Shown: positions 1,590-62,149 of the stretch, in pieces | Layout: the number at the start of each line of letters is the position of its first letter | Numbering within the stretch: the stretch's first letter is position 1 | Assembly (NCBI GenBank): GCA_023229365.1 | Contig: JALNZK010000003.1 | Coordinates: 10,339-74,338 of the forward strand | Direction of reading: 5' to 3' | Source: Pseudomonadota bacterium | GTDB lineage: Bacteria > Myxococcota_A > Polyangia > JAAYKL01 | Length of the DNA: 64,000 nucleotides | Notes under the pieces: generated by a model | What the model was told of the DNA's origin: nothing | Databases searched by the model: none | The model's input: the letters and a program-made list of their open reading frames with translations, nothing else | Made by a program: the position numbers and the translations under genes

Positions 1590-1740
1590 CTATACATCCC
1601 CATTTCTGTCATAGAGGCAAAATACCCTAGAGATGAAAGAATCACATGTAACGGAACATAGCGAAAATGTTCTTTTGCACAAGATAGGGCGAGGTAAAAA
1701 TATAAGGTTCCATATAGGCCCCATCCGATTGAAAAGAAAG

Positions 1741-2127
1741 TTATTTCCATAGTCCCAATCTCCCCGTAATTTTATCGATATTCTCGTTTAAATCAGGTCC
1801 GATTCCTATGCAGGTAAGAGTGTTGGGGTCCAGTTCTGTCAGGCCGAAATCATAAACCGTATAGAACGGAAGATTGTGTTCCGCACACTTTCCTTCGAGC
1901 GCTATAATTTCTTTCGCCGATGGGACCCTAAGAACTATCTTTCGAAATCCTTCGGCAAACCAATTTTCCAGCGTTGCTTTTGCTCGATATACTCCAGATC
2001 CGTTACATATCACTCCCACGCTCGCGTGAGCTACCTGAACCGCCAGTTTCCCCGGCGACATTTTAAGATCTTCTCGGACAACTATTACTTGCTTATAAAG
2101 GAATTTAGTAGTCATAATATTTGTCAT
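1741..2127 (-). CDS. pth2: peptidyl-tRNA hydrolase, archaeal/eukaryotic Pth2 type
   Basis: KQVIVVREDLKMSPGKLAVQVAHASV ... FRKIVLRV ... GLTELDPNTLTCIGIGP aligns by eye along its whole length with Pth2 proteins. Confidence 0.85.
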   Translation of the reverse strand: MTNIMTTKFLYKQVIVVREDLKMSPGKLAVQVAHASVGVICNGSGVYRAKATLENWFAEGFRKIVLRVPSAKEIIALEGKCAEHNLPFYTVYDFGLTELDPNTLTCIGIGPDLNENIDKITGRLGLWK

Positions 2128-2692
2128 CTCCGATTTTCTCTACTTTAAGAACTTTAATGGTCGGAACCGTAATTTCTAGATAATTGTCATATTCCATATC
2201 TTCCTCTTCTATTATCTTTCTGTCTGCTTCATCTGGATCTGGAGCGCTCACAACCATTTTACCTGTAAAGGTGGTCTTAACCGTAAACTCCACCATATAG
2301 TCGGGCATCTCTTCCTTTCTCCTCTTAATTTCTTCGTCCCACAGTATACTCTTCATACAGTCTTCTAGGTCATAAAACTTTTGGTGGAGCCTTTTGAGAT
2401 TATCAAGACTCGTATTATGCTTTCCAAGGAAGAACGAGATCTGATTTGCAATTTCGTGTATCTCAGATTCGGAGTCTTTAGTATTCATAGTTTTGGTTTC
2501 TTCTTTGTGTTGCTCGATTTCTTCCTTCGTGATTTTTCGTAGATCTTCTGCATAATATTCATGCCCTTCTTTGTCCGTGCAATACGCTTTTTTACTCCAT
2601 GTACTAAATCTAATTGTTTTTATTTGGAACACTAAAAGGGGTGGATATGCGAGTTGTACCCAATCGCCCGTCTCCAATATGTCGGAACTCAT
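2105..2692 (-). CDS. hypothetical protein (195 aa)
   Basis: ORF track; dominant strand; overlaps neighbours by a few nt. No domain recognised. Confidence 0.5.
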   Translation of the reverse strand: MSSDILETGDWVQLAYPPLLVFQIKTIRFSTWSKKAYCTDKEGHEYYAEDLRKITKEEIEQHKEETKTMNTKDSESEIHEIANQISFFLGKHNTSLDNLKRLHQKFYDLEDCMKSILWDEEIKRRKEEMPDYMVEFTVKTTFTGKMVVSAPDPDEADRKIIEEEDMEYDNYLEITVPTIKVLKVEKIGDDKYYDY

Positions 2693-3132
2693 TTCCTTAA
2701 CCTCTCTATATCATCTAGAATAATGTTCGTGATTTCTTTTACTACCACTTCAAGTTCAGCAAGACCTTTCATATGACTCATTAAATCTTGAATCTTTTCT
2801 GGCGGAGTTTTTCTACAGTCTGGACATAGATAAAAGTATCCAGCTCTATAATCGTCCGACGCGGGATAATCATAACACGAGTAAGAGTCTCCACTATATC
2901 CGGCATCACCTACTTCAAACTCATATTCCTCAAAGATTTTATTTTTCTGAAGGCAAAAATTGCAAGCATGTTTTCCACACCCCAGACATGAGGGCATTCT
3001 GTCTCCCGATCCTCTGGCGCAAAAATCACAGTCCCAGACAATTCTAGGGACATCTATAGTAATTACTTCGTTCACCGCTGGCACGACGGTTCTTACTTCT
3101 TTTTTTCTCTCGATAATGGTTTTTTGAGTCAT
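2689..3132 (-). CDS. Cys-rich (multi zinc-ribbon) protein (147 aa)
   Basis: CDFC..CLGCGKHACNFC..CPDC pattern; 4-nt overlaps on both sides. Confidence 0.5.
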   Translation of the reverse strand: MTQKTIIERKKEVRTVVPAVNEVITIDVPRIVWDCDFCARGSGDRMPSCLGCGKHACNFCLQKNKIFEEYEFEVGDAGYSGDSYSCYDYPASDDYRAGYFYLCPDCRKTPPEKIQDLMSHMKGLAELEVVVKEITNIILDDIERLRK

Positions 3133-3626
3133 AATCCGTCTCCGTACATTGGAGTATCTAATCTTCTCTTTACGTTTTCTTTTATCTCATCCCTTACCTG
3201 CACCAAAAGTTTTCCTAGCATATTCTGACTTCCGGGAAGCGCTCCGCCCCAGAACATATCAGTTGGCGAATCCTCAATAAGAATTGCATCTCCAGTCCAT
3301 AGTAACAAGTATCTCAGGGTATTATTGTAGTGGAACTTCTTTCTCAATCCTTCCAACATAACCTCCGTTTTCTTTGTCTCCCACTTTTGAACCATTTCTT
3401 CGGGTCTCAAATTTCTGCCCGCGGTCATGGCGGCGTAAGCGGTTGGTGCTCTTCGTATCCATTCTTTCATCGCGTAACTTTTTGCTTTTTGAGATTGATA
3501 ATAATGTTCGTTCGTTTGATAAGTATCCGGTTTGGTTCCATATCCAAAATCTATTGGTTCTCTCCAAAAATTAGACAGGAATCCATAAGGCTCCTCTCTT
3601 AAATAAAATCTTATTTCTTCGGACAT
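3129..3626 (-). CDS. NADAR (YbiA/DUF1768) family protein
   Basis: YGFLSNFW ... NEHYYQSQKA ... GRNLR ... W...K..VMLEGLRKKF ... TGDAILIEDSPTDMFWG matches the YbiA/NADAR pattern. Confidence 0.8.
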   Translation of the reverse strand: MSEEIRFYLREEPYGFLSNFWREPIDFGYGTKPDTYQTNEHYYQSQKAKSYAMKEWIRRAPTAYAAMTAGRNLRPEEMVQKWETKKTEVMLEGLRKKFHYNNTLRYLLLWTGDAILIEDSPTDMFWGGALPGSQNMLGKLLVQVRDEIKENVKRRLDTPMYGDGL

Positions 3627-3627
3627 T

Positions 3628-3816
3628 TTACTTTTCTCTCCTTAAAATATCATCTAAATGTGTAACGGCCATTTCTACGGCCTTTCCCGGATTATGTCCC
3701 ATATTCATATATCTAGATTGCTCGGATTGGATATATGCATCTATCAGTATGTGGTACTTTGGAACGGTCATTTCCTGTTTAATTTGTTCTATTCTTTTAT
3801 ATAAGTTTTCGGACAT
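3628..3816 (-). CDS. hypothetical protein (62 aa)
   Basis: ORF track; dominant strand; 1-nt gap to upstream gene. Confidence 0.45.
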   Translation of the reverse strand: MSENLYKRIEQIKQEMTVPKYHILIDAYIQSEQSRYMNMGHNPGKAVEMAVTHLDDILRREK

Positions 3817-3856
3817 ATCACTTTCCCCTCTTTATGCCTCGTAATATACATATTAG

Positions 3857-4897
3857 CTAATTATGGTGCGCGGAAAGGGGAATTGTGCGAGTTCCCCGCC
3901 AAGTTACTTTTGTTAATATATTTAGGTCTTCTGACTTCGCAATTTTAGTAATCCGTTTTCCTGTTCTAACACTGTGTAGGGAAATTCTACCCTTATAACT
4001 TCCACCAATATAGGTTAATTTCCACTTAGGATGCCGAACCAAGGTTCCTCTGCTAAATCCCATTGATCGCGTCCCGCCTTGGGGTCTTCTAGTCCCTCCT
4101 TTTGTGAATTGAAACATATGTAATTGTCTTCTATTTAACACTATAGGTGTCCAATAGTTTAAATCTTTTGTGGTAGGTTGGCCTGCTCCGCAGATACTAG
4201 CAGCCATAACCCAAGCATCCACTGCATGAGATTCGAACACCTTCCTGGATTTAACGGAAGTTTTCTTCAGTCGGTACGTATCGCGGAGCATCTTAGTGTC
4301 GTAACCTCTAAATAATTCTAGCTTCAGCCGCATATCCCGAATTGTTTGGTAGAACCACGCTTTTCCCACTTCTAAAGGCGAGAAATTCACATTGAACTTT
4401 CGAGCCCCTTTCCTGGTCTTAGCCGCTATATCTTCCACGCAAACATCTGTGATAGGTAACACCCTCTTTATCTGTTTTAGTATTCGTACCTTGGAATTCC
4501 ATCTAGCTAGGGTCGAAGGCGGCAACCACTTTTTATTTCTATTTCGGTTAAATCTGGCGGGTCTTCTCCAACAGTTTCTATGCCTCCTAGATTTTCGTAG
4601 ATTACGGCGTCTCTCGACCGCGCCCTTAACGTGAATGGGCTCTTCCTGCATACCATTGAGTACCGTCTTATGTTGCCCTACCACGCTCCACCCGGTCCAC
4701 TTTGATCCAGGGTCAATACCAACTACTAACTTCTGGTTATCGGGTACGACCTCTTTGTGTAATATAATACAGAATATTCCTAATTTATTCCAGTAGGCGG
4801 ATGCCTTTCCGTTATCGAGCAGTTTCCTCGCGTGTGCCGGTGATGTAGGCATTAACGGAACCATTCTTGAATCTAATACGGGTATTTGTTGCGACAT
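3857..4897 (-). CDS. isrB: IsrB (HNH-less IscB-like, RuvC-only OMEGA nuclease/nickase)
   Basis: PLMP motif (RMVPLMPTSPAHARKLL); RuvC-I VVGIDPGSKWTGW; Arg-rich bridge helix RRRNLRKSRRHRNCWRRPARFNRNRNKKWLPPS; RuvC-II DVCVEDIA; RuvC-III ESHAVDAW. There is no HNH insert. Length is 346 aa. Confidence 0.85.
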   Translation of the reverse strand: MSQQIPVLDSRMVPLMPTSPAHARKLLDNGKASAYWNKLGIFCIILHKEVVPDNQKLVVGIDPGSKWTGWSVVGQHKTVLNGMQEEPIHVKGAVERRRNLRKSRRHRNCWRRPARFNRNRNKKWLPPSTLARWNSKVRILKQIKRVLPITDVCVEDIAAKTRKGARKFNVNFSPLEVGKAWFYQTIRDMRLKLELFRGYDTKMLRDTYRLKKTSVKSRKVFESHAVDAWVMAASICGAGQPTTKDLNYWTPIVLNRRQLHMFQFTKGGTRRPQGGTRSMGFSRGTLVRHPKWKLTYIGGSYKGRISLHSVRTGKRITKIAKSEDLNILTKVTWRGTRTIPLSAHHN

Positions 4898-9151: not shown

Positions 9152-9937
9152 CTAAATAATTTTTCCTTCGCTTTCACTAAATCGGTTGCAATTATCGTTA
9201 AAACATTCTAGAGAATATGTTTCTTTTAATTCTTTGGGCCACCCCATTTTATTCCATTTGGATAATAATTTGGTTGAATCCGTTTCCCCATTGCGCCTCA
9301 TTTCAGCCCCATTATGTCCTATATGTCCAACACAAAGATGTATTAAACTTTGATCGCCACAGACTCTACAAGGACCAAAGAATTCATAGGCCGCTTTCCA
9401 AAGTTTTATTTGGCGTTTTTGAGACAAAGATATCTCCGACTTTGATAAATTAAAATACCCGCGCCGCTTCACTCCGCAATTGCAATTGTAATCCAAAACC
9501 CGCAATCTCCTTCTAATTTCGGTTTCTTCGGGCCAAACCGTTTTATTCCAATATTGAATCATCCCGTAAACGTAGTTTTCCCCATAAACTTCTCTGTCGT
9601 GTTTAGAGTCATTGTTTATGTGGTCGAAGGTTAAATACTTTTTGTTTGATTCTCCGCACATAACACATTCATAACCCAATATATCGAATAGCTTATTTCT
9701 TAGCTTTTCGTTGTATTTTCTTTGATACTCAATTATTGATTTATGATTTTGGGATCTATATTCTTCTTCTTTTCCCCTGGTCTTGTCATAGTTTATCCAT
9801 CGATTTATTGTCCCAACAGCGCAATTGCATTCTATCGCTATTTGTCTCTGGCTTTTTCCTAGTCGCATTTGTTTGTCCAACCAATCTTTATTTTTATATG
9901 GTTTTGCTCCGCTAAGTAACAAATAAAGTCCTCCCAA
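9152..9937 (-). CDS. free-standing HNH-type endonuclease with N-terminal HTH
   Basis: HTH-like KSQRQIAIECNCAVGTINRWI. Cys/His modules CVMCG...LTFDHINND and CRVCG...VGHIGHNG. Sits between the polymerase and methyltransferase genes. Confidence 0.55.
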   Translation of the reverse strand: MGGLYLLLSGAKPYKNKDWLDKQMRLGKSQRQIAIECNCAVGTINRWINYDKTRGKEEEYRSQNHKSIIEYQRKYNEKLRNKLFDILGYECVMCGESNKKYLTFDHINNDSKHDREVYGENYVYGMIQYWNKTVWPEETEIRRRLRVLDYNCNCGVKRRGYFNLSKSEISLSQKRQIKLWKAAYEFFGPCRVCGDQSLIHLCVGHIGHNGAEMRRNGETDSTKLLSKWNKMGWPKELKETYSLECFNDNCNRFSESEGKII

Positions 9938-9952
9938 AAAAGTTATAGCTAG

Positions 9953-11962
9953 TTAAATAGAATTAATCCGTTCTTCCGCCATTTTACAATAATCTGCGTT
10001 CAGATCTATCCCCACGAAATCCCGGCCCAACTTCTTGGAAACCACGCCTACAGTCCCACTTCCCATAAATGGATCTAATATCAAGCAAGGTTCAGGATCT
10101 CCCCAGGCGCAGTCCAGAATACATGAGCAGGTCTGTTGCCATCCTACGGTTTTAGATTCTGCGGGAGATAGCATAGTTCCACTAGCTTGAGTCCTTCCAA
10201 ATTCTCCCATTTGCGCCATTCTATCTGTCTTTCGAATAACCATTGGTTTCTTAAGAAGAATTCTCTTGTATGGAGCATTACATGCGGGACAGCAACCTTT
10301 TTCGGAAGTGGACGATTTGATAGGATTTAGAAGTAATTCTTCACAAAATGTCGCAAAATGCGCCGACTTAAAGGGCTTCGTTACAAGGGTCCAAACCGAA
10401 CGGAGGTTGCGCTTACTGGTACAATATTGACTGAGACGCCCACGAGACGTTTGTCCATTTGGCGTATTTTCTCTTGCAGAGCCAGATAGTTTGCCCGTCG
10501 TGTAATTCCCTGATTTTCCCGGTCTAGTGTCTTCTGGATTTTTGCGTCCTTCCTTCACCGCCTCTCCATCATAAAAATACTTCTTACTTTTCGTGAACAT
10601 AAACAAGTATTCATGACTTTTTGATGGGCGATCAACTACCGACTCAGGCATTGAATTCCCCACATATAATCCCAGGTTCTCAATGAGTGCTTCTATTTTA
10701 TTTTGATCAATTCCAATTTCTATGCCAGCATTATAGATCTGAGAAGTCAGTTCTTTTTGTCCACTCACTCCCTTGGCCCAGATAATGTCTGACCGGAGCC
10801 ACCAGCCGTCGTCTCTAAGAGCGAAAGCTACGAGCCAGGGAATTCCGATGAGATCTTTGGGTTTAATAGATATATTTATATAGTTTGTGGTATTATATGG
10901 CTGAATATATGGAAGGTTCAACCATGACGAAACAAGCGAATAGTATCTGGAAATGCATCGAATGTGGTCGCACAGTTCCTCGAAGGACGAAAAGGTGTCC
11001 CGAGTGTCACAAGGCGTTTCTAAAGATCCGACCGACTTACGTTCGAACTCCCGAGCACAAACGGCTAATGAGCGAAGTAACGACAGGAAAACCAAAAGCG
11101 TATCCTTCGGCTTCAACTCGCCCAGAAGTGGCGGAACGTATTCGTTTGGCTTGGACTCCTGAAATGAAAGAATCTGCTCGATTGCGGGGATTAGCGTTTG
11201 CGCTCGATCCAAACTGGCGTTTAATGATTGCCGAATCTGTTTCCGGAGAGAAAAATCCTCGATGGGAAGATGGTCGGGCAGTTTTACCTTATTCACCAGG
11301 TTTTGCTGGCAAAGTAAGGCAACTTGTTCATGAGCGAGACGGAGAGTGTTGTCAGAAATGTGGTTCCACCAAAAATTTATGCGTTCACCACATGGACTTT
11401 CAGAAAAATGATCACGATCTGGGAAACTTGGTTCTCCTCTGTCGGAAGTGTCACACGGGAACGCATTTAGAGCATAAGAACGGTCATGTTTAGACCTCCC
11501 GTTTGTTCTGTTAACTCCGCCCGTGTTTTTATGATTGCTATACCCCGCGCCGCAATAAGAATCTCCTAAATTTAAAAATAGGATTCCGTCGTCTCTCAGA
11601 GTCCTTTTTACCTCTCTAAATACTTCTACGAGATTAGTCACGTATTCGTCTGGCGTAGCCTCTAATCCGAGTTGAAAATCCTCATATGTGGCTCCACACT
11701 TAGAACATGTTGGGGATGGGAACTCGGACGGATAACTATTTGTTGTGTTTTTAGCATTGGGTCCAGATCCACCTCTCCCGTTCCTCGCTGGAATTGTATC
11801 GTGAACGCAATCTTGCGATCCTCCGATCCATTTTCCGGTATTGTACGATCTTAAGCCAAAAAATGGCGGACTCGTTATGCAACATTGAAACACTTTGTCT
11901 GGAAAAGTCTTTAAAACGTCCAAAGAATTGCCACAATAAATTTTATTTCGCTCCATACTCAT
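9953..11962 (-). CDS. beta-class N4/N6 DNA methyltransferase carrying a ~209-codon in-frame insertion
   Basis: Motif IV ITSPPFFG, FLNLGDSY, KPKDLIGIPWLVAFALRDDGWWLRSDIIWAK, MPESVVDRPSKSHEYLF, motif I ILDPFMGSGTVG. The loop between GDSY and KPKD is expanded by the antisense HNH cassette. Confidence 0.8.
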   Translation of the reverse strand: MSMERNKIYCGNSLDVLKTFPDKVFQCCITSPPFFGLRSYNTGKWIGGSQDCVHDTIPARNGRGGSGPNAKNTTNSYPSEFPSPTCSKCGATYEDFQLGLEATPDEYVTNLVEVFREVKRTLRDDGILFLNLGDSYCGAGYSNHKNTGGVNRTNGRSKHDRSYALNAFPCDTSDRGEPSFPDRDHFSESPCGERINFWWNHISDNTLRLAHEQVALLCQQNLVNKVKLPDHLPIEDFSLRKQIRQSLNASLDRAQTLIPAIEQILSFQESKPNEYVPPLLGELKPKDTLLVFLSLLRSLAVCAREFERKSVGSLETPCDTRDTFSSFEELCDHIRCISRYYSLVSSWLNLPYIQPYNTTNYINISIKPKDLIGIPWLVAFALRDDGWWLRSDIIWAKGVSGQKELTSQIYNAGIEIGIDQNKIEALIENLGLYVGNSMPESVVDRPSKSHEYLFMFTKSKKYFYDGEAVKEGRKNPEDTRPGKSGNYTTGKLSGSARENTPNGQTSRGRLSQYCTSKRNLRSVWTLVTKPFKSAHFATFCEELLLNPIKSSTSEKGCCPACNAPYKRILLKKPMVIRKTDRMAQMGEFGRTQASGTMLSPAESKTVGWQQTCSCILDCAWGDPEPCLILDPFMGSGTVGVVSKKLGRDFVGIDLNADYCKMAEERINSI
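10868..11494 (+). mobile_element. HNH endonuclease cassette (own promoter, SD and ORF) inserted in the variable loop of the methyltransferase gene
   Basis: Boundaries inferred from where the MTase translation leaves (..GGVNRTNGRS) and re-enters (IKPKDLIGIPW) family-typical sequence. TTTATATAGTTT box at 10875-10886. Confidence 0.5.
10924..11493 (+). CDS. HNH homing-type endonuclease, antisense inside the methyltransferase ORF
   Basis: Zinc ribbon CIECG..CPEC and HNH core CQKCGS...CVHHMD...NLVLLCRKCHTGTH. SD GGAAGG precedes ATG 10924. The ORF track start at 10885 is less likely. Confidence 0.8.
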   Translation: MTKQANSIWKCIECGRTVPRRTKRCPECHKAFLKIRPTYVRTPEHKRLMSEVTTGKPKAYPSASTRPEVAERIRLAWTPEMKESARLRGLAFALDPNWRLMIAESVSGEKNPRWEDGRAVLPYSPGFAGKVRQLVHERDGECCQKCGSTKNLCVHHMDFQKNDHDLGNLVLLCRKCHTGTHLEHKNGHV

Positions 11963-12420
11963 CTCTTCTCCAAATTTAGCCTTTTAGCTTTATGATATAC
12001 AGAATGGTCCTTTCTCCCTAGATGTTCCCCTATCTCTCCCGCTGTCATTGTGAGATAATTATTTTTCAAATAATCTATATCTTCAGGAGACCAACTAGAG
12101 TTTCTTTTTCTCCGAAGTCCTAAACTACTTGCCTTTAGTATTATTCCTTCCTTTTTCCTCCCCAGCACAAAACTCATTTCTTCCCAAGAGGTCGTAGCGT
12201 AACTTCTTTTAAGATATTCTATATCTTCCGAACTAAAATGTTTTAAATACTCTAAATTAGTTCCATTCAGTCCCAATTCATCAATTCTTTTTTCAATTTG
12301 AGATTCCGATCGGCCCCAGAGTTTATTTTGAATAGAGTTTCTTTTAACTCCTCTAACAGGGATCTTTCCATAAAATTCTTTTAAGATATCGTCTTCTTCT
12401 GTCGTAAACTTGTCGGGTAT
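11959..12420 (-). CDS. three-repeat Myb/SANT-like DNA-binding protein (start codon uncertain, probably AUA)
   Basis: Three ~45-aa repeats: FTTEEDDILKEFY.., FSSEDIEYLKRSY.., WSPEDIDYLKNNY... The ORF track starts at TTG 12276 inside repeat 1. The frame is open up to 12453 with no ATG, GTG or TTG. SD AGGAGAG lies 8 nt before ATA 12420. Confidence 0.55.
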   Translation of the reverse strand: MPDKFTTEEDDILKEFYGKIPVRGVKRNSIQNKLWGRSESQIEKRIDELGLNGTNLEYLKHFSSEDIEYLKRSYATTSWEEMSFVLGRKKEGIILKASSLGLRRKRNSSWSPEDIDYLKNNYLTMTAGEIGEHLGRKDHSVYHKAKRLNLEKR

Positions 12421-12595
12421 AAAAATCTCTCCTAATATTCGGTCTTTCAGACCTCATCTACCATATCTAGTCGTCAGAATCCTTTCTAGGGCCACCGCAA
12501 TTCTTACTAATGAATCACAATTCTCCCTCATCATGCAACTTTCTTTTTTCGGAATATAGGCCATACATTTTCCCAGAATACATTCATCGTTTATT

Positions 12596-60991: not shown

Positions 60992-62149
60992 ATGAAGAAA
61001 TCCTATAAATTTCGGGTGTTTCCAACTAAGGCTCAACAACATCTCTTAGAAGAAACTCTCGATCTTTGTAGGTGGACCTACAATCAAACCTTGGCCTACA
61101 GAAAGAACATGTGGGAATCAGAGAAAAAGAACGTTTCTAAGTACGATTCCCATCTTTTGCTTCCAACATGGAAGGCTGAAAGGCCAGAGTTGAAAGGCGT
61201 ATTTTCTCAGGTTCTACAAAACGCCCAAGAAAGGATTGACCTCGCTTTTAAGGCTTTCTTTAGACGAGTCAAAAACCATGAAAATCCTGGATATCCTAGA
61301 TTTAAAGGAAAGGGGAACTATGACTCGTTTACGTACCCTCAAAGCGGATTCTCTGTAAAGGATAACAAAACTCTTTACCTCTCCAAAATCGGAGATGTCA
61401 AGATAAAGATTCATAGAGAAATTGAGGGCCAAATAAAAAGGTTGACCGTCCTTAGAACCATACGGAACAAATGGTATGTTACGTTCTCCGTAGAACAAGA
61501 AACTATATTCATACCTTCTGATAACGGTCCAGTAATCGGAATTGATCTTGGGTTAGAAAGCTTTTTAACATTCTCAGATGGCAGCAAGGTTGATAATCCA
61601 AGGTTCTTCCGATCTGAAGAACATTTATTGGCTAAGAAACAGAGTCGAAGAGACAAACTCCCTAAAGGCTCCGTAGAAAGGAAGAAAACAACAAGGGTTA
61701 TCCAGAGAATTCATGAGAGAATAACCAATAAACGTTCTAATTTTGCCCATCAACTCAGTCATAAATTAGTAACAAAATATTCTGTAGTTTGCTTAGAAGA
61801 TCTTAATATAAAATCAATGCTCAGAGATGGAACACGCGGACTGTCTAAGTCTATCTCAGACGCTTCTTGGAATCTTCTACTCCGATTAATTTCCTACAAG
61901 GCTGAAAGTGCCGGTTCGAAAGCGATCTTTGTAGATCCTCGAAATACGTCTCAGATGTGTTCTTTCTGCGGAGCGATGGTTCCGAAGCAGTTAAAGGACC
62001 GAATCCATAAATGCCCATTCTGCGGCTTAGAAATGGACCGAGACAAAAACGCTGCTATAAATATACTCAGATTGGGATTACAATCTGTCGGTAAAACCGA
62101 TCTTAGATCGGAAGTCCGTAGAAGCCCCATCTTTCAGGATGGGGAATGA
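60992..62149 (+). CDS. tnpB: TnpB (IS200/IS605-IS1341 family RuvC RNA-guided nuclease)
   Basis: N-terminus YKFRVFPTKAQQHLL; RuvC D IGIDLG; E VCLEDLN; zinc finger CSFCG..CPFCG; D DRDKNAAINI. Confidence 0.9.
   Translation: MKKSYKFRVFPTKAQQHLLEETLDLCRWTYNQTLAYRKNMWESEKKNVSKYDSHLLLPTWKAERPELKGVFSQVLQNAQERIDLAFKAFFRRVKNHENPGYPRFKGKGNYDSFTYPQSGFSVKDNKTLYLSKIGDVKIKIHREIEGQIKRLTVLRTIRNKWYVTFSVEQETIFIPSDNGPVIGIDLGLESFLTFSDGSKVDNPRFFRSEEHLLAKKQSRRDKLPKGSVERKKTTRVIQRIHERITNKRSNFAHQLSHKLVTKYSVVCLEDLNIKSMLRDGTRGLSKSISDASWNLLLRLISYKAESAGSKAIFVDPRNTSQMCSFCGAMVPKQLKDRIHKCPFCGLEMDRDKNAAINILRLGLQSVGKTDLRSEVRRSPIFQDGE

What the first reader, a model, noticed from the sequence alone, without database searches (positions are those of the whole stretch)
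10868..11494. HNH endonuclease cassette embedded antisense in a methyltransferase ORF whose reading frame stays open across it
The 669-aa beta-class N4/N6 methyltransferase (9953-11962, minus strand) has normal motifs. The short Gly-rich loop expected between NLGDSY and KPKDLIGIPW is instead about 230 aa long.
- Exactly this stretch is the reverse complement of a complete plus-strand gene. That gene has a TTTATATAGTTT box (10875-10886), an SD, ATG 10924, and a zinc-ribbon plus HNH core (CVHHMD...LLCRKCHTGTH).
- The MTase frame has no stop codon across the ~209 antisense codons.
- In this frame relationship an MTase stop arises whenever an HNH codon of type NTT, NCT or NTC is followed by a codon starting with A.
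- I counted 36 such codons in the HNH gene and none is followed by A. About a quarter of its codons start with A, so roughly 9 stops would be expected by chance.
That looks like selection to keep the host gene translatable through an opposite-strand selfish gene. This is neither an intron nor an intein. It behaves like a homing endonuclease gene that invades a coding loop without breaking the frame. I am not aware of a described class like this.
Basis: seen in the sequence. Interest (0 to 1): 0.8.

Follow-up and report, generated by a model that had tools for sequence, protein, structure and literature searches.

The report
Backwards endonuclease gene inside methyltransferase gene
A selfish DNA-cutting-enzyme (HNH) gene sits backwards inside a phage DNA methyltransferase gene, and in about 60 divergent relatives the host reading frame has stayed free of stop codons across it, so the parasite seems to avoid breaking its host without any splicing.

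Summary
The 669-aa beta-class methyltransferase (MTase) ORF (9953-11962, minus) reads without a stop through a complete plus-strand HNH gene (10924-11493). There are 36 at-risk codon contexts and no stops, where about 9-11 are expected.

HNH-seeded searches show this is a family:
- 95 loci carry the HNH.
- In 75 of them, the antisense frame is open.
- In 61 of those 75, one ORF joins the MTase N and C parts in frame.

Across 61 distinct HNH genes there are 0 stops against 245-364 expected. Split-type and free-standing relatives show 68 against 72-94 expected.

The HNH frame is the selected one (dN/dS 0.19). The read-through peptide drifts (apparent dN/dS 1.45), has no Pfam domain, and is disordered or loosely helical in AlphaFold models.

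No intron or intein signature was found. The cassette's relationships do not follow those of its host MTases, and an insert-free ortholog exists.

Best reading: a homing HNH cassette with its own conserved extended -10 promoter, tolerated as an in-frame loop insertion.

This is not unprecedented. The ShiLan domain is a same-strand hidden HNH in phage methylases, and antisense endonuclease genes are known inside inteins. I rate it a new variant of a known kind. Translation through the insert and MTase activity are untested, and the window's own MTase shows signs of decay.

The parts
9953..11962 (-). Host gene: a 669-aa beta-class N4/N6 DNA methyltransferase ORF, read uninterrupted through the cassette. 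The motif IV sequence SPPF lies near the N-terminus and the motif I sequence DPFMGSG near the C-terminus.
   Evidence: - ORF listing.
- Pfam N6_N4_Mtase at 1.3e-32 and PHROG 67.
- The AlphaFold core matches M.BceJIV, M.MboIIA, CcrM, M.RsrI and M.PvuII.
- The nearly invariant Pro540 of the HFATFP motif is Cys here.
11555..11962 (-). MTase N-terminal part, aa 1-136, ending in the conserved LNLGDSY motif.
   Evidence: Alignment to the insert-free ortholog L158/P0001 and the MTase alignment.
10865..11554 (.). Inserted cassette of 690 nt, equal to MTase aa 137-366. It replaces the native 48-aa loop of the ortholog. On the minus strand it is stop-free and a multiple of 3. On the plus strand it carries the HNH gene with its expression signals.
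   Evidence: -.
- Nucleotide identity to L076 is 0.63-0.97 (mostly 0.7 or higher) from about 10829 to 11575. Beyond that it falls to 0.2-0.63, and is lowest away from the conserved motifs.
- The insert has no Pfam domain.
- AlphaFold: aa 141-194 are disordered, and aa 192-348 form five helices with pLDDT 53-90.
10924..11493 (+). HNH endonuclease gene of 189 aa. It has an N-terminal CxxC...CxxC zinc ribbon, a conserved middle region (AWTPEMKE), and a C-terminal HNH core CVHHMD...N...CRKCH. In-frame alternative starts lie at 10885 (TTG), 10897 (ATG) and 10909 (ATG).
   Evidence: -.
- The family alignment has invariant C11, C25, C28, C143, C146, H155, H156, D158, N168, C173 and C176. C14 is nearly invariant.
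- dN/dS is 0.185 in the HNH frame.
10888..10896 (+). Extended -10 promoter element TGG-TATTAT for the HNH gene. In most relatives it is TGGTATAAT followed by exactly 6 nt and then ATG, which implies a leaderless mRNA. Its mirror image gives the conserved Y-T-T (N-T-T here) in the MTase frame.
   Evidence: - The scan shows TATTAT preceded by TG.
- The element is conserved across class A loci. 36 of 58 match a strict pattern, and about 32 have the 6-nt spacing to ATG.
- Promoter function is inferred.
10911..10916 (+). Shine-Dalgarno-like GGAAGG, ending 7 nt before ATG 10924. A short leader with a Shine-Dalgarno sequence is specific to the window's subgroup (also L076, L077, L080).
   Evidence: Sequence and the upstream alignment.
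11494..11554 (.). Spacer between the HNH stop and the LNLGDSY codons. In the MTase frame it reads CGAGYSNHKNTGGVNRTNGR. It is conserved with L076. In other members it is absent or resembles a native Gly-rich loop.
9953..10864 (-). MTase C-terminal part, aa 367-669, starting at the conserved KPKDLIGIPW motif.

Best explanation
The 690-nt stretch is a mobile HNH homing-endonuclease cassette. It lives on the strand opposite to its host gene, in the variable loop between two highly conserved motifs (LNLGDSY and KPKDLIGIPW) of beta-class DNA methyltransferases.

Shown:
- The HNH gene is a conserved protein-coding gene under purifying selection.
- It has its own conserved extended -10 box. Here this comes with a short leader carrying a Shine-Dalgarno sequence; in most relatives the spacing implies a leaderless mRNA.
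- The cassette occupies the same site in at least 56 distinct MTases.
- Its relationships are decoupled from those of the host MTases.
- Close orthologs exist without it.
- The host frame across it is kept free of stops far beyond chance, and it joins the two MTase halves in phase.

Inferred:
- The HNH cuts or nicks cassette-free alleles near the conserved motif DNA. Recombinational repair then copies the cassette in and replaces the loop.
- The ribosome translates the MTase straight through the antisense of the HNH gene. This adds a 200-230 aa excursion to a surface loop. The excursion is weakly constrained and either largely disordered or loosely helical, and the enzyme tolerates it.
- Cassettes that acquire an antisense stop harm the host gene or operon and are lost. 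That loss maintains the open frame without RNA or protein splicing.
For: - Exact reproduction of the count and the local baseline.
- Family-wide pattern: 75 of 95 HNH-seeded loci are open in the same antisense phase. In 61 of them one ORF contains the MTase N part upstream and the C part downstream in frame.
- Stop test: 0 stops against 364 (codon shuffle) or 245 (synonymous resampling) expected in 61 distinct genes. The split-type and free-standing controls show 68 against 94 or 72.
- Escaped relative: the free-standing L002 nests inside a read-through clade yet carries 8 stops.
- Which frame is selected: HNH dN/dS is 0.185, and HNH third positions are near saturation. The antisense frame has an apparent dN/dS of 1.45.
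- Fixed site: always between the LNLGDSY-like and KPKDL-like motifs.
- Mobility: there is an insert-free ortholog L158. Window and L076 share a high-identity tract limited to the cassette plus the motif codons. HNH and MTase identities correlate only at r = 0.17.
- Host integrity: 33 of 41 complete read-through ORFs keep both motif IV and motif I by a strict pattern.
- Structure: the MTase core folds confidently around the insert in two models.
- No intron or intein.
- Conserved promoter.
- Independent confirmation from the MTase side: 12 of the 15 long homologs that were fetched and read (out of the 120 listed) carry the insert. P0045's DNA holds the antisense HNH.
Against: - There are no expression, protein or activity data.
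- In this particular lineage the MTase may be decaying. The nearly invariant Pro540 is Cys.
- The 99.7%-identical contig L001/L075 has five non-synonymous changes out of six in the MTase, including the nonsense change K578*.
- Two read-through loci (L091, L143) carry in-frame stops inside the SPPY motif, upstream of the cassette.
- The window's insert is predicted to be partly a helical bundle. That could mean more than passive tolerance.
- Evidence for a co-conversion tract is inconclusive.
- The HNH target site is unknown.
Confidence: 0.7

Rival explanations
1. The frame is kept open by selection, but not for MTase activity. Stop-free read-through would simply avoid premature termination, and with it Rho-type polarity or loss of translational coupling on downstream genes. 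Here those are the HNH-like gene at 9152-9937 and the DNA polymerase III alpha gene. On this view the MTase itself could be dead.
For: - The MTase lies directly upstream of the polymerase gene on the same strand, here and in L158.
- There are signs of MTase decay in this lineage: P540C, and K578* in L001.
- L091 and L143 have stops in motif IV.
Against: - Most read-through hosts keep their catalytic and AdoMet motifs.
- L001 tolerates a nonsense codon in the same gene. L091 and L143 tolerate upstream stops. Polarity therefore cannot be a strict constraint.
- The sister clade solves the same problem with a stop and a restart, and both halves are conserved as protein.
Confidence: 0.12
2. The antisense-encoded peptide is itself a selected, functional domain of the MTase, for example a helical module that affects dimerisation, specificity or regulation. 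The element would then be domesticated rather than merely tolerated.
For: - AlphaFold predicts five long helices (aa 192-348, pLDDT up to 90) in the window's insert.
- Class A peptides have fewer prolines and more acidic residues than synonymous resamples.
- They are slightly more conserved than the virtual peptide of split-type relatives.
Against: - The apparent dN/dS is 1.45.
- Peptide identity is only 19-37% when the HNH is 30-70% identical.
- There is no Pfam domain.
- The fold search gives only generic helical bundles at E of 0.03 or worse.
- In another clade (P0045) the insert is predicted to be mostly disordered, with pLDDT below 50.
Confidence: 0.08
3. The insert is removed from the mRNA by a self-splicing or other intron that carries an antisense endonuclease gene, as seen in some nuclear group I introns.
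For: Antisense homing endonuclease genes exist in nuclear rDNA group I introns (PMC9548176). Rfam cannot detect unknown ribozymes.
Against: - No Rfam match at E up to 1 in 9500-12500, and none at gathering score in 20 related loci.
- The HNH ORF fills 570-609 of the 690 nt. In compact members it overlaps the flanking motif codons.
- A spliced insert would not need a stop-free frame that is a multiple of 3 across 61 diverged genes.
Confidence: 0.03
4. The insert is excised from the protein by an unusual intein-like reaction. It would be a non-canonical intein with an antisense endonuclease gene.
For: Inteins with antisense LAGLIDADG or VSR-like endonuclease genes are described (bioRxiv 10.1101/2025.01.02.630785). 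The window's insert happens to begin with Cys137.
Against: - No Hint or intein Pfam hit, even at E = 10.
- The residue after the insert is Lys, not Cys, Ser or Thr, and there is no terminal His-Asn.
- The first residue of the insert is F, Y, M, A, S or C in relatives.
- The non-HNH flanks are 0-30 aa long, far too short for splicing blocks.
Confidence: 0.02
5. The open antisense frame is a by-product of composition or codon bias of the HNH gene, and reflects no selection.
For: Shadow ORFs are common in GC-rich genes. The codon-aligned antisense frame is indeed open by chance in GC-rich relatives.
Against: - The window has 41-49% GC across the gene.
- 0 of 500 shuffles or resamples were stop-free.
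- The other antisense frames carry 9 and 11 stops.
- Controls from the same protein family show stops at the expected rate.
Confidence: 0.005

Closest known systems
ShiLan domain, the 'hidden HNH' insertion in actinobacteriophage DNA methylases (Gosselin et al. 2023, PMC9957025; Arsenault, Gosselin and Gogarten 2025, PMC11855218; also phage Applejack, PMC12613952)
   Same: [quoted passage not shown]
- There are no stops in the host frame.
- An HNH endonuclease ORF is hidden in another reading frame.
- No intron or intein features are detectable.
- Its distribution is patchy, and the element's phylogeny is decoupled from the methylase phylogeny.
- The in-frame peptide is predicted to be poorly structured and to loop out.
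   Different: - There the HNH is on the same strand, in the +3 frame, with a GTG start 18 bp into the insert and no ribosome-binding site. Its authors speculate about how it is translated.
- Here the HNH is on the opposite strand and has its own conserved extended -10 promoter, with or without a Shine-Dalgarno sequence.
- The two HNH proteins are not detectably related. tblastn of the window HNH against 50,697 phage records gave no mycobacteriophage hit at E of 1e-5 or better.
- I did not test whether the insertion site in the MTase fold is the same.
- The papers contain no statistical test of stop avoidance and no metagenomic survey, as far as I read them.
Non-canonical inteins with an endonuclease gene on the antisense strand or in another frame (Gorbalenya 1998 and Gogarten et al. 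2002, as cited in bioRxiv 10.1101/2025.01.02.630785)
   Same: A homing endonuclease gene is encoded antisense to, or out of frame with, an ORF that stays open across it. The in-frame translation of that stretch forms no recognisable structure.
   Different: - In those cases the stretch lies inside an intein, and the intein's splicing domain removes it from the host protein.
- Here there are no splicing blocks at all, so the peptide must stay in the MTase.
- The endonucleases there are of the LAGLIDADG, VSR-like or endonuclease VII-like types, not HNH.
Group I intron-encoded homing endonuclease genes, including antisense genes in nuclear rDNA introns (PMC9548176), and phage HNH examples such as I-HmuI (own knowledge)
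   Same: A site-specific endonuclease gene is embedded in a conserved host gene. Presence and absence vary between close relatives. The insertion lies next to highly conserved host sequence.
   Different: There is no ribozyme and no non-coding scaffold. The host is protected at the level of translation, not by RNA splicing.
Free-standing homing endonuclease genes that split a host gene into two genes (for example mobE in the Aeromonas phage Aeh1 nrdA gene; own knowledge), and the split-type sister clade found here
   Same: It is the same HNH family, at the same MTase loop and in the same antisense orientation. The host function is presumably kept.
   Different: In the split type the antisense frame carries stops at the chance rate. 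The MTase is made as two polypeptides with conserved tail and head peptides. The window's element keeps one continuous ORF.

Membership tests
Non-splicing in-frame 'hidden HNH' insertion of DNA methylases (ShiLan-type) | The insertion lies in a DNA methylase gene at a conserved position flanked by conserved residues. | tested here: met
   It lies between LNLGDSY and KPKDLIGIPW in the window and in 56 distinct host ORFs.
Non-splicing in-frame 'hidden HNH' insertion of DNA methylases (ShiLan-type) | There is no stop codon in the host frame across the insert, and the insert length keeps the host in phase. | tested here: met
   - The insert is 690 nt with 0 stops.
- 61 loci have the N and C parts in one ORF.
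- Family-wide there are 0 stops against 245-364 expected.
Non-splicing in-frame 'hidden HNH' insertion of DNA methylases (ShiLan-type) | The HNH ORF lies in an alternative frame of the same strand as the methylase. | tested here: not met
   The HNH is on the opposite strand. This is the main structural difference.
Non-splicing in-frame 'hidden HNH' insertion of DNA methylases (ShiLan-type) | No intron or intein features are detectable. | tested here: met
   Rfam finds nothing. Pfam finds no Hint or intein domain in the insert.
Non-splicing in-frame 'hidden HNH' insertion of DNA methylases (ShiLan-type) | The element is distributed patchily and transferred between divergent methylases. | tested here: met
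   - Insert-free ortholog L158.
- Window against L076: HNH 84% identical, MTase 36-55% identical.
- Correlation r = 0.17.
Non-splicing in-frame 'hidden HNH' insertion of DNA methylases (ShiLan-type) | The HNH is homologous in sequence to the ShiLan HNH or domain. | tested here: not met
   There was no mycobacteriophage hit for the window HNH at E of 1e-5 or better in the phage collection. I made no direct alignment with ShiLan, because my guessed accession was wrong.
HNH homing endonuclease | An HNH catalytic core with its zinc-binding cysteines. | tested here: met
   - Pfam HNH above the gathering score.
- 12 PHROG families annotated HNH endonuclease.
- Invariant H155, H156, D158, N168, C143, C146, C173 and C176.
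- Some relatives carry NUMOD3.
HNH homing endonuclease | The enzyme cleaves or nicks the element-free allele at or near the insertion site and thereby drives gene conversion. | not testable with these tools
   There is only indirect support: presence/absence polymorphism, a fixed site, and incongruent relationships. The co-conversion test was inconclusive.
Intein (including non-canonical inteins with an antisense endonuclease gene) | Hint splicing blocks are present: an N-terminal Cys/Ser/Thr, a C-terminal His-Asn, and Cys/Ser/Thr at the +1 position. | tested here: not met
   - No Pfam hit.
- The +1 residue is Lys367.
- The insert ends in ...NISI.
- The first residue varies among relatives.
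Group I or group II intron carrying an endonuclease gene | A ribozyme core flanks or surrounds the ORF. | tested here: not met
   There was no Rfam match at E up to 1 or at gathering score in 20 loci. The non-ORF sequence is 0-120 nt long. An unknown ribozyme class cannot be excluded by this test.
Beta-class N4/N6 DNA methyltransferase (host gene) | The PF01555 domain is present, with motif IV ((D/S)PP(Y/F)) N-terminal to motif I (FxGxG). | tested here: met
   -.
- SPPF at aa 31-34 and DPFMGSG at aa 630-636.
- Fold matches to M.MboIIA, CcrM, M.RsrI and M.PvuII.
Beta-class N4/N6 DNA methyltransferase (host gene) | The protein has catalytic activity while carrying the insert. | not testable with these tools
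   Motifs IV and I are intact. However, the nearly invariant Pro540 is Cys, and the nearest relative has a nonsense codon at 578.

The most novel reading that the evidence does not exclude
This may be a distinct, widespread class of homing-endonuclease element that needs neither an intron nor an intein. The cassette sits on the opposite strand with its own, mostly leaderless, promoter. It is shaped by selection so that its mirror image is a harmless stop-free peptide, through which an active methyltransferase is translated. A sister clade of the same HNH family solves the same problem differently. It splits the host into fragments that carry portable 'tail' and 'head' junction peptides, and those peptides recur at other MTase split points.
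Probability: 0.5. Interest if true: 0.8.

Novelty: new variant of a known kind. Interest (0 to 1): 0.62.

Why it matters
Homing endonuclease genes are thought to persist inside essential or conserved genes by hiding in self-splicing introns or inteins. This family adds to recent ShiLan-type evidence for a third route: staying in the protein as a tolerated loop.

It is also the clearest quantitative case, with 0 stops against about 250-360 expected across 61 diverged genes and with built-in controls. That makes it a natural example of selection sculpting roughly 200 codons of one strand solely so that they do not terminate a gene on the other strand.

Practical consequences:
- Gene callers hide these HNH genes under 'long methyltransferases'. 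Only 42 HNH proteins of this family were found among 5.8 billion, yet a single metagenome scan confirmed 105 loci.
- The loop between LNLGDSY and KPKDL is marked as a permissive site for large insertions in beta-class MTases.
- The family offers site-specific HNH enzymes whose target is probably the DNA encoding two universal MTase motifs.

Tried and rejected
- **Intron.** The Rfam E-value search of 9500-12500 and the gathering search of 20 related loci found nothing. Rejected.
- **Intein.** Pfam on the whole protein, and on three insert peptides at E up to 10, found nothing relevant. Rejected.
- **Codon-bias artefact.** Rejected by the window baseline, the shuffles, and the control relatives.
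- **Second reading phase.** I first thought a subgroup used a second phase, the codon-aligned antisense frame. That frame turned out to be only a GC-rich shadow ORF confined to the HNH gene. Those loci are the split-MTase type.
- **Native loop for the split type.** I asked whether the tail and head peptides of the split type are a native MTase loop. They are absent from the 120 closest MTase homologs, and they occur at other split points.
- **Promoter scan.** On its own it was no better than shuffles, 7 sites against 4.5 ± 2. The promoter claim rests on conservation and fixed spacing.
- **Co-conversion tract** next to the cassette. Inconclusive.
- **Composition test** of the read-through peptide. 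The biases are only weak. The first attempt timed out.
- **ShiLan genome.** I guessed its accession and fetched the wrong phage, Eureka. I therefore did not compare insertion sites directly.
- **Cultured phages.** No record covers 80% or more of the window MTase, and the HNH has no close relative among them.
- **Species-representative genomes.** Only 3 MAG contigs carry the HNH.


Full report
**1. The observation**

The window holds a 669-aa ORF on the minus strand (9953-11962). A 189-aa ORF lies on the plus strand inside it (ATG 10924 to stop 11493, with an upstream TTG at 10885).
- The long ORF is a PF01555 N4/N6 DNA methyltransferase (MTase) at 1.3e-32.
- The short ORF passes the Pfam HNH gathering score.
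- The short ORF also matches 14 PHROG families, 12 of them annotated HNH endonuclease, down to 1.4e-12.

There are 36 codons of type NTT/NCT/NTC, none is followed by A, and 50 of 190 codons start with A.

Several baselines show this is not chance.
- In 36 other long ORFs of the window, 30% of such codons are followed by A. That predicts about 11 stops.
- Codon shuffles gave a mean of 9.2 stops and synonymous resampling gave 6.3. None of 500 trials of either kind was stop-free.
- The other two antisense frames carry 9 and 11 stops.

**2. It is a family, and the open frame is selected**

I collected loci by searching for the HNH protein. This sampling does not depend on whether the opposite frame is open.

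Of 95 loci with a near-full-length relative (28-100% identity), almost all have an MTase N part upstream and a C part downstream on the opposite strand.
- In 75 loci the antisense phase used in the window has no stop.
- In 61 of these, one uninterrupted ORF contains both MTase parts in frame.
- Most of the rest are cut by contig ends.

Among 61 distinct HNH genes of this read-through type there are 0 stops. Codon shuffling predicts 364 and synonymous resampling predicts 245.

The class was defined by openness, so the real evidence lies in three other points.
- The distribution is bimodal: zero stops in 75 loci, and 2-13 in nearly all of the rest (one locus, L092, has a single stop).
- The class coincides with in-frame MTase flanks.
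- Relatives from the same protein family serve as controls. Twelve split-type and three other HNH genes carry 68 stops, against 94 or 72 expected.

The free-standing relative L002 nests within a read-through clade. It carries 8 stops in that phase and sits beside a truncated MTase remnant.

The MTase-seeded search points the same way. Of the 15 long homologs fetched from the 120 listed, 12 carry a homologous long insert. The DNA of one of them, P0045, holds the antisense HNH.

**3. Which strand is the 'real' gene**

- HNH third codon positions diverge towards saturation (identity 0.31-0.64), while positions 1 and 2 are conserved.
- dN/dS is 0.185 in the HNH frame. The apparent value in the antisense frame is 1.45.
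- In this phase the HNH wobble base is the second base of the antisense codon. The read-through peptide therefore changes fast: it is 19-37% identical when the HNH is 30-70% identical.
- It is only 2-7 points more conserved than the virtual peptide of split-type relatives. It shows weak biases towards fewer prolines and more acidic residues.
- It has no Pfam domain.

AlphaFold models the MTase core confidently around the insert.
- In the window the insert is a disordered linker (aa 141-194) followed by five helices (pLDDT 53-90).
- In P0045, from another clade, the insert mostly has pLDDT below 50.
- The fold search matches the core to M.BceJIV, M.MboIIA, CcrM, M.RsrI and M.PvuII. The insert matches only generic helical bundles.

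The peptide therefore looks like a tolerated passenger, not a conserved domain.

**4. Anatomy and mobility**

An ortholog on a 129-kb contig (L158/P0001) has about 90% identical flanks and lacks the cassette.
- Its 48-aa loop between NLGDSY and KAKDLIGIPW is replaced in the window by aa 137-366, which is nt 10865-11554.
- In 56 distinct hosts the cassette always lies between these two motifs.
- In compact versions the HNH stop overlaps the LNLGDSY codons and the start lies 2-13 codons from KPKD.

Comparison of the window with L076 supports horizontal movement.
- The HNH is 84% identical.
- Nucleotide identity is 0.63-0.97 (mostly 0.7 or higher) from about 10829 to 11575. It falls to 0.2-0.63 outside.
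- The MTases are only 36-55% identical.

Across 703 pairs, HNH and MTase identities correlate at r = 0.17.

Upstream of the HNH start, most members share TGGTATAAT followed by exactly 6 nt and then ATG. That is the geometry of an extended -10 promoter producing a leaderless mRNA.
- Its mirror image is the conserved Y-T-T in the MTase frame.
- The window's subgroup has TGG-TATTAT (10888-10896), a short leader, and GGAAGG 7 nt before the ATG.
- Promoter function is inferred from conservation. The consensus scan alone was not above shuffles.

**5. What it is not**

- **Not an intron.** There is no Rfam match, including group I and II introns, in the window region or in 20 related loci. There is also almost no non-coding sequence to build a ribozyme.
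- **Not an intein.** There are no splicing blocks. The residue after the insert is Lys, and the insert's first residue varies between relatives.

**6. Mechanism**

The best-supported explanation is a homing HNH cassette on the opposite strand, tolerated as an in-frame insertion in a surface loop. Selection removes copies that gain an antisense stop.

The following are shown:
- the gene content;
- the fixed insertion site;
- the open frame and its statistics;
- purifying selection on the HNH;
- the mobility signatures.

The following are inferred:
- cleavage of empty alleles;
- translation through the insert;
- retained MTase activity.

There are cautions for this particular locus.
- The nearly invariant Pro540 (HFATFP motif) is Cys.
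- In the 99.7%-identical contig L001/L075, the MTase has six substitutions. Five are non-synonymous, including K578*, and none lies in the cassette.

The main rival is that the frame is kept open to avoid polarity on the downstream polymerase gene rather than for MTase function. The tolerated nonsense codons argue against a strict polarity constraint.

**7. Relatives with stops**

Sixteen loci (12 distinct HNH genes) form their own HNH clade. In them the MTase is split into two ORFs around the antisense HNH.
- The N fragment ends in a conserved tail (..LRxDLTxEExAYVLxELAxCxxL).
- The C fragment starts with a conserved head (MxLxLxQxEIPxHLxxYFRP).
- Both are conserved across 40-67% GC.
- These peptides are not a native loop of the 120 nearest MTases.
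- They recur at other split points. P0167 is a middle MTase fragment that starts with the head and ends with the tail.

It also suggests a second, splicing-free way of living inside the same gene.

**8. Comparison with the literature**

- The closest described case is the ShiLan domain. It is a 202-aa stop-free insertion in mycobacteriophage methylases that hides an HNH in the +3 frame of the same strand. It has no intron or intein features and is transferred horizontally (PMC9957025, PMC11855218).
- Antisense or out-of-frame endonuclease genes inside an open frame are also known. In those cases they lie within inteins, which splice the stretch out (bioRxiv 10.1101/2025.01.02.630785).
- Antisense endonuclease genes also occur in nuclear group I introns (PMC9548176).

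I found no description of an opposite-strand HNH read through directly in a host protein. The window HNH has no close relative in 50,697 phage records.

**Verdict**

The feature is real and under strong selection. It is a new variant of a known kind: opposite strand, own promoter, no splicing domain, and widespread in metagenomes.

Noticed in passing
L111, L121, L124/L125, L122/L123/L156, L008, L114, L014, L115/L116, L103, L106, L109, L110, L112; proteins P0163-P0167, P0172, P0223: A sister clade of the same HNH family sits antisense at the same MTase loop, but there the MTase is split into two ORFs. The N fragment ends in a conserved tail of about 25 aa (..LRxDLTxEExAYVLxELAxCxxL*). The C fragment begins with a head of about 20 aa (MxLxLxQxEIPxHLxxYFRP). 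The same tail and head recur at other MTase split points: P0167 starts with the head and ends with the tail. They therefore look like portable junction peptides, perhaps holding the fragments together. They are too short to be split inteins.
   Followed up: partly
window 9152-9937 (-): A 261-aa ORF with weak HNH and HTH matches (PHROG 4234 and 8446, about 1e-6) lies between the MTase and the DNA polymerase III alpha gene. In the insert-free relative L158 the MTase stop and the polymerase start are adjacent. This looks like a second, free-standing endonuclease insertion in the same neighbourhood.
   Followed up: partly
window aa 540 of the MTase (about nt 10343-10345); L001/L075 codon 578: The nearly invariant Pro of the HFATFP motif is Cys in the window. 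The 99.7%-identical contig L001/L075 has 6 substitutions in the MTase: 5 non-synonymous, including AAG to TAG at codon 578, and none in the cassette. This suggests relaxed selection on this particular MTase.
   Followed up: yes
L091 and L143 (MTase motif IV): Two unrelated read-through loci carry a 6-nt insertion with in-frame stop codons exactly inside the catalytic motif. L091 reads SPPY-TGA-TAG-WGLRDY, and L143 reads SPPYW-TAG-WGLRDY. The origin is unknown. It could be a footprint, deliberate inactivation or recoding.
   Followed up: no
L161 = Synechococcus phage S-EIVl KJ410740.1, locus 1618-4158 and 2201-3160 (+): The annotated 846-aa 'terminase large subunit' of a cultured cyanophage is open throughout. 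It has intein-like ends (..CLVGDTMVLT.. to ..GFNVLN/C). It contains a 319-codon HNH ORF in a different frame of the same strand. This looks like a hidden out-of-frame HNH inside an intein.
   Followed up: partly
L026, L054 (terminase-like with intein-like ends); L045, L058, L063 (C5-cytosine MTase-like): I surveyed 63 loci with partial HNH matches. In five of them a host ORF stays open across a same-strand, out-of-frame HNH ORF, with flanks of at least 60 aa. Stop-free nesting of HNH genes may therefore be common beyond this family.
   Followed up: partly
P0005, P0028, P0093, P0104 (MTase homologs): The same MTase family carries other in-frame insertions at other sites. P0028 and P0104 have intein-like segments (Intein_splicing and LAGLIDADG_3 hits). 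P0005, a close relative of the window MTase, has an insert of about 170 aa after KPKDLIGIPWKLAEAL. That insert has a LAGLIDADG-like motif by eye but no Pfam hit. The gene is a hot spot for mobile elements.
   Followed up: partly
window 10892-10921 (-): The best sigma-70-like match in the region (TTGAAC-18-TATAAT, 10 of 12) lies on the MTase strand inside the cassette, overlapping the mirror image of the HNH -10 box. It could drive transcription of the MTase C part and the downstream genes. It is seen only in the window's subgroup.
   Followed up: no
HNH family, database level: Only 42 proteins of this HNH family are called among 5.8 billion predicted proteins. Yet one metagenome scan confirmed 105 encoding loci. 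Gene callers usually report only the longer antisense MTase ORF, so these endonucleases are systematically unannotated.
   Followed up: yes
window 60992-62149 (+): A 385-aa transposase (PHROG 506, 6e-110) lies on the plus strand of this otherwise mostly minus-strand phage-like region.
   Followed up: no
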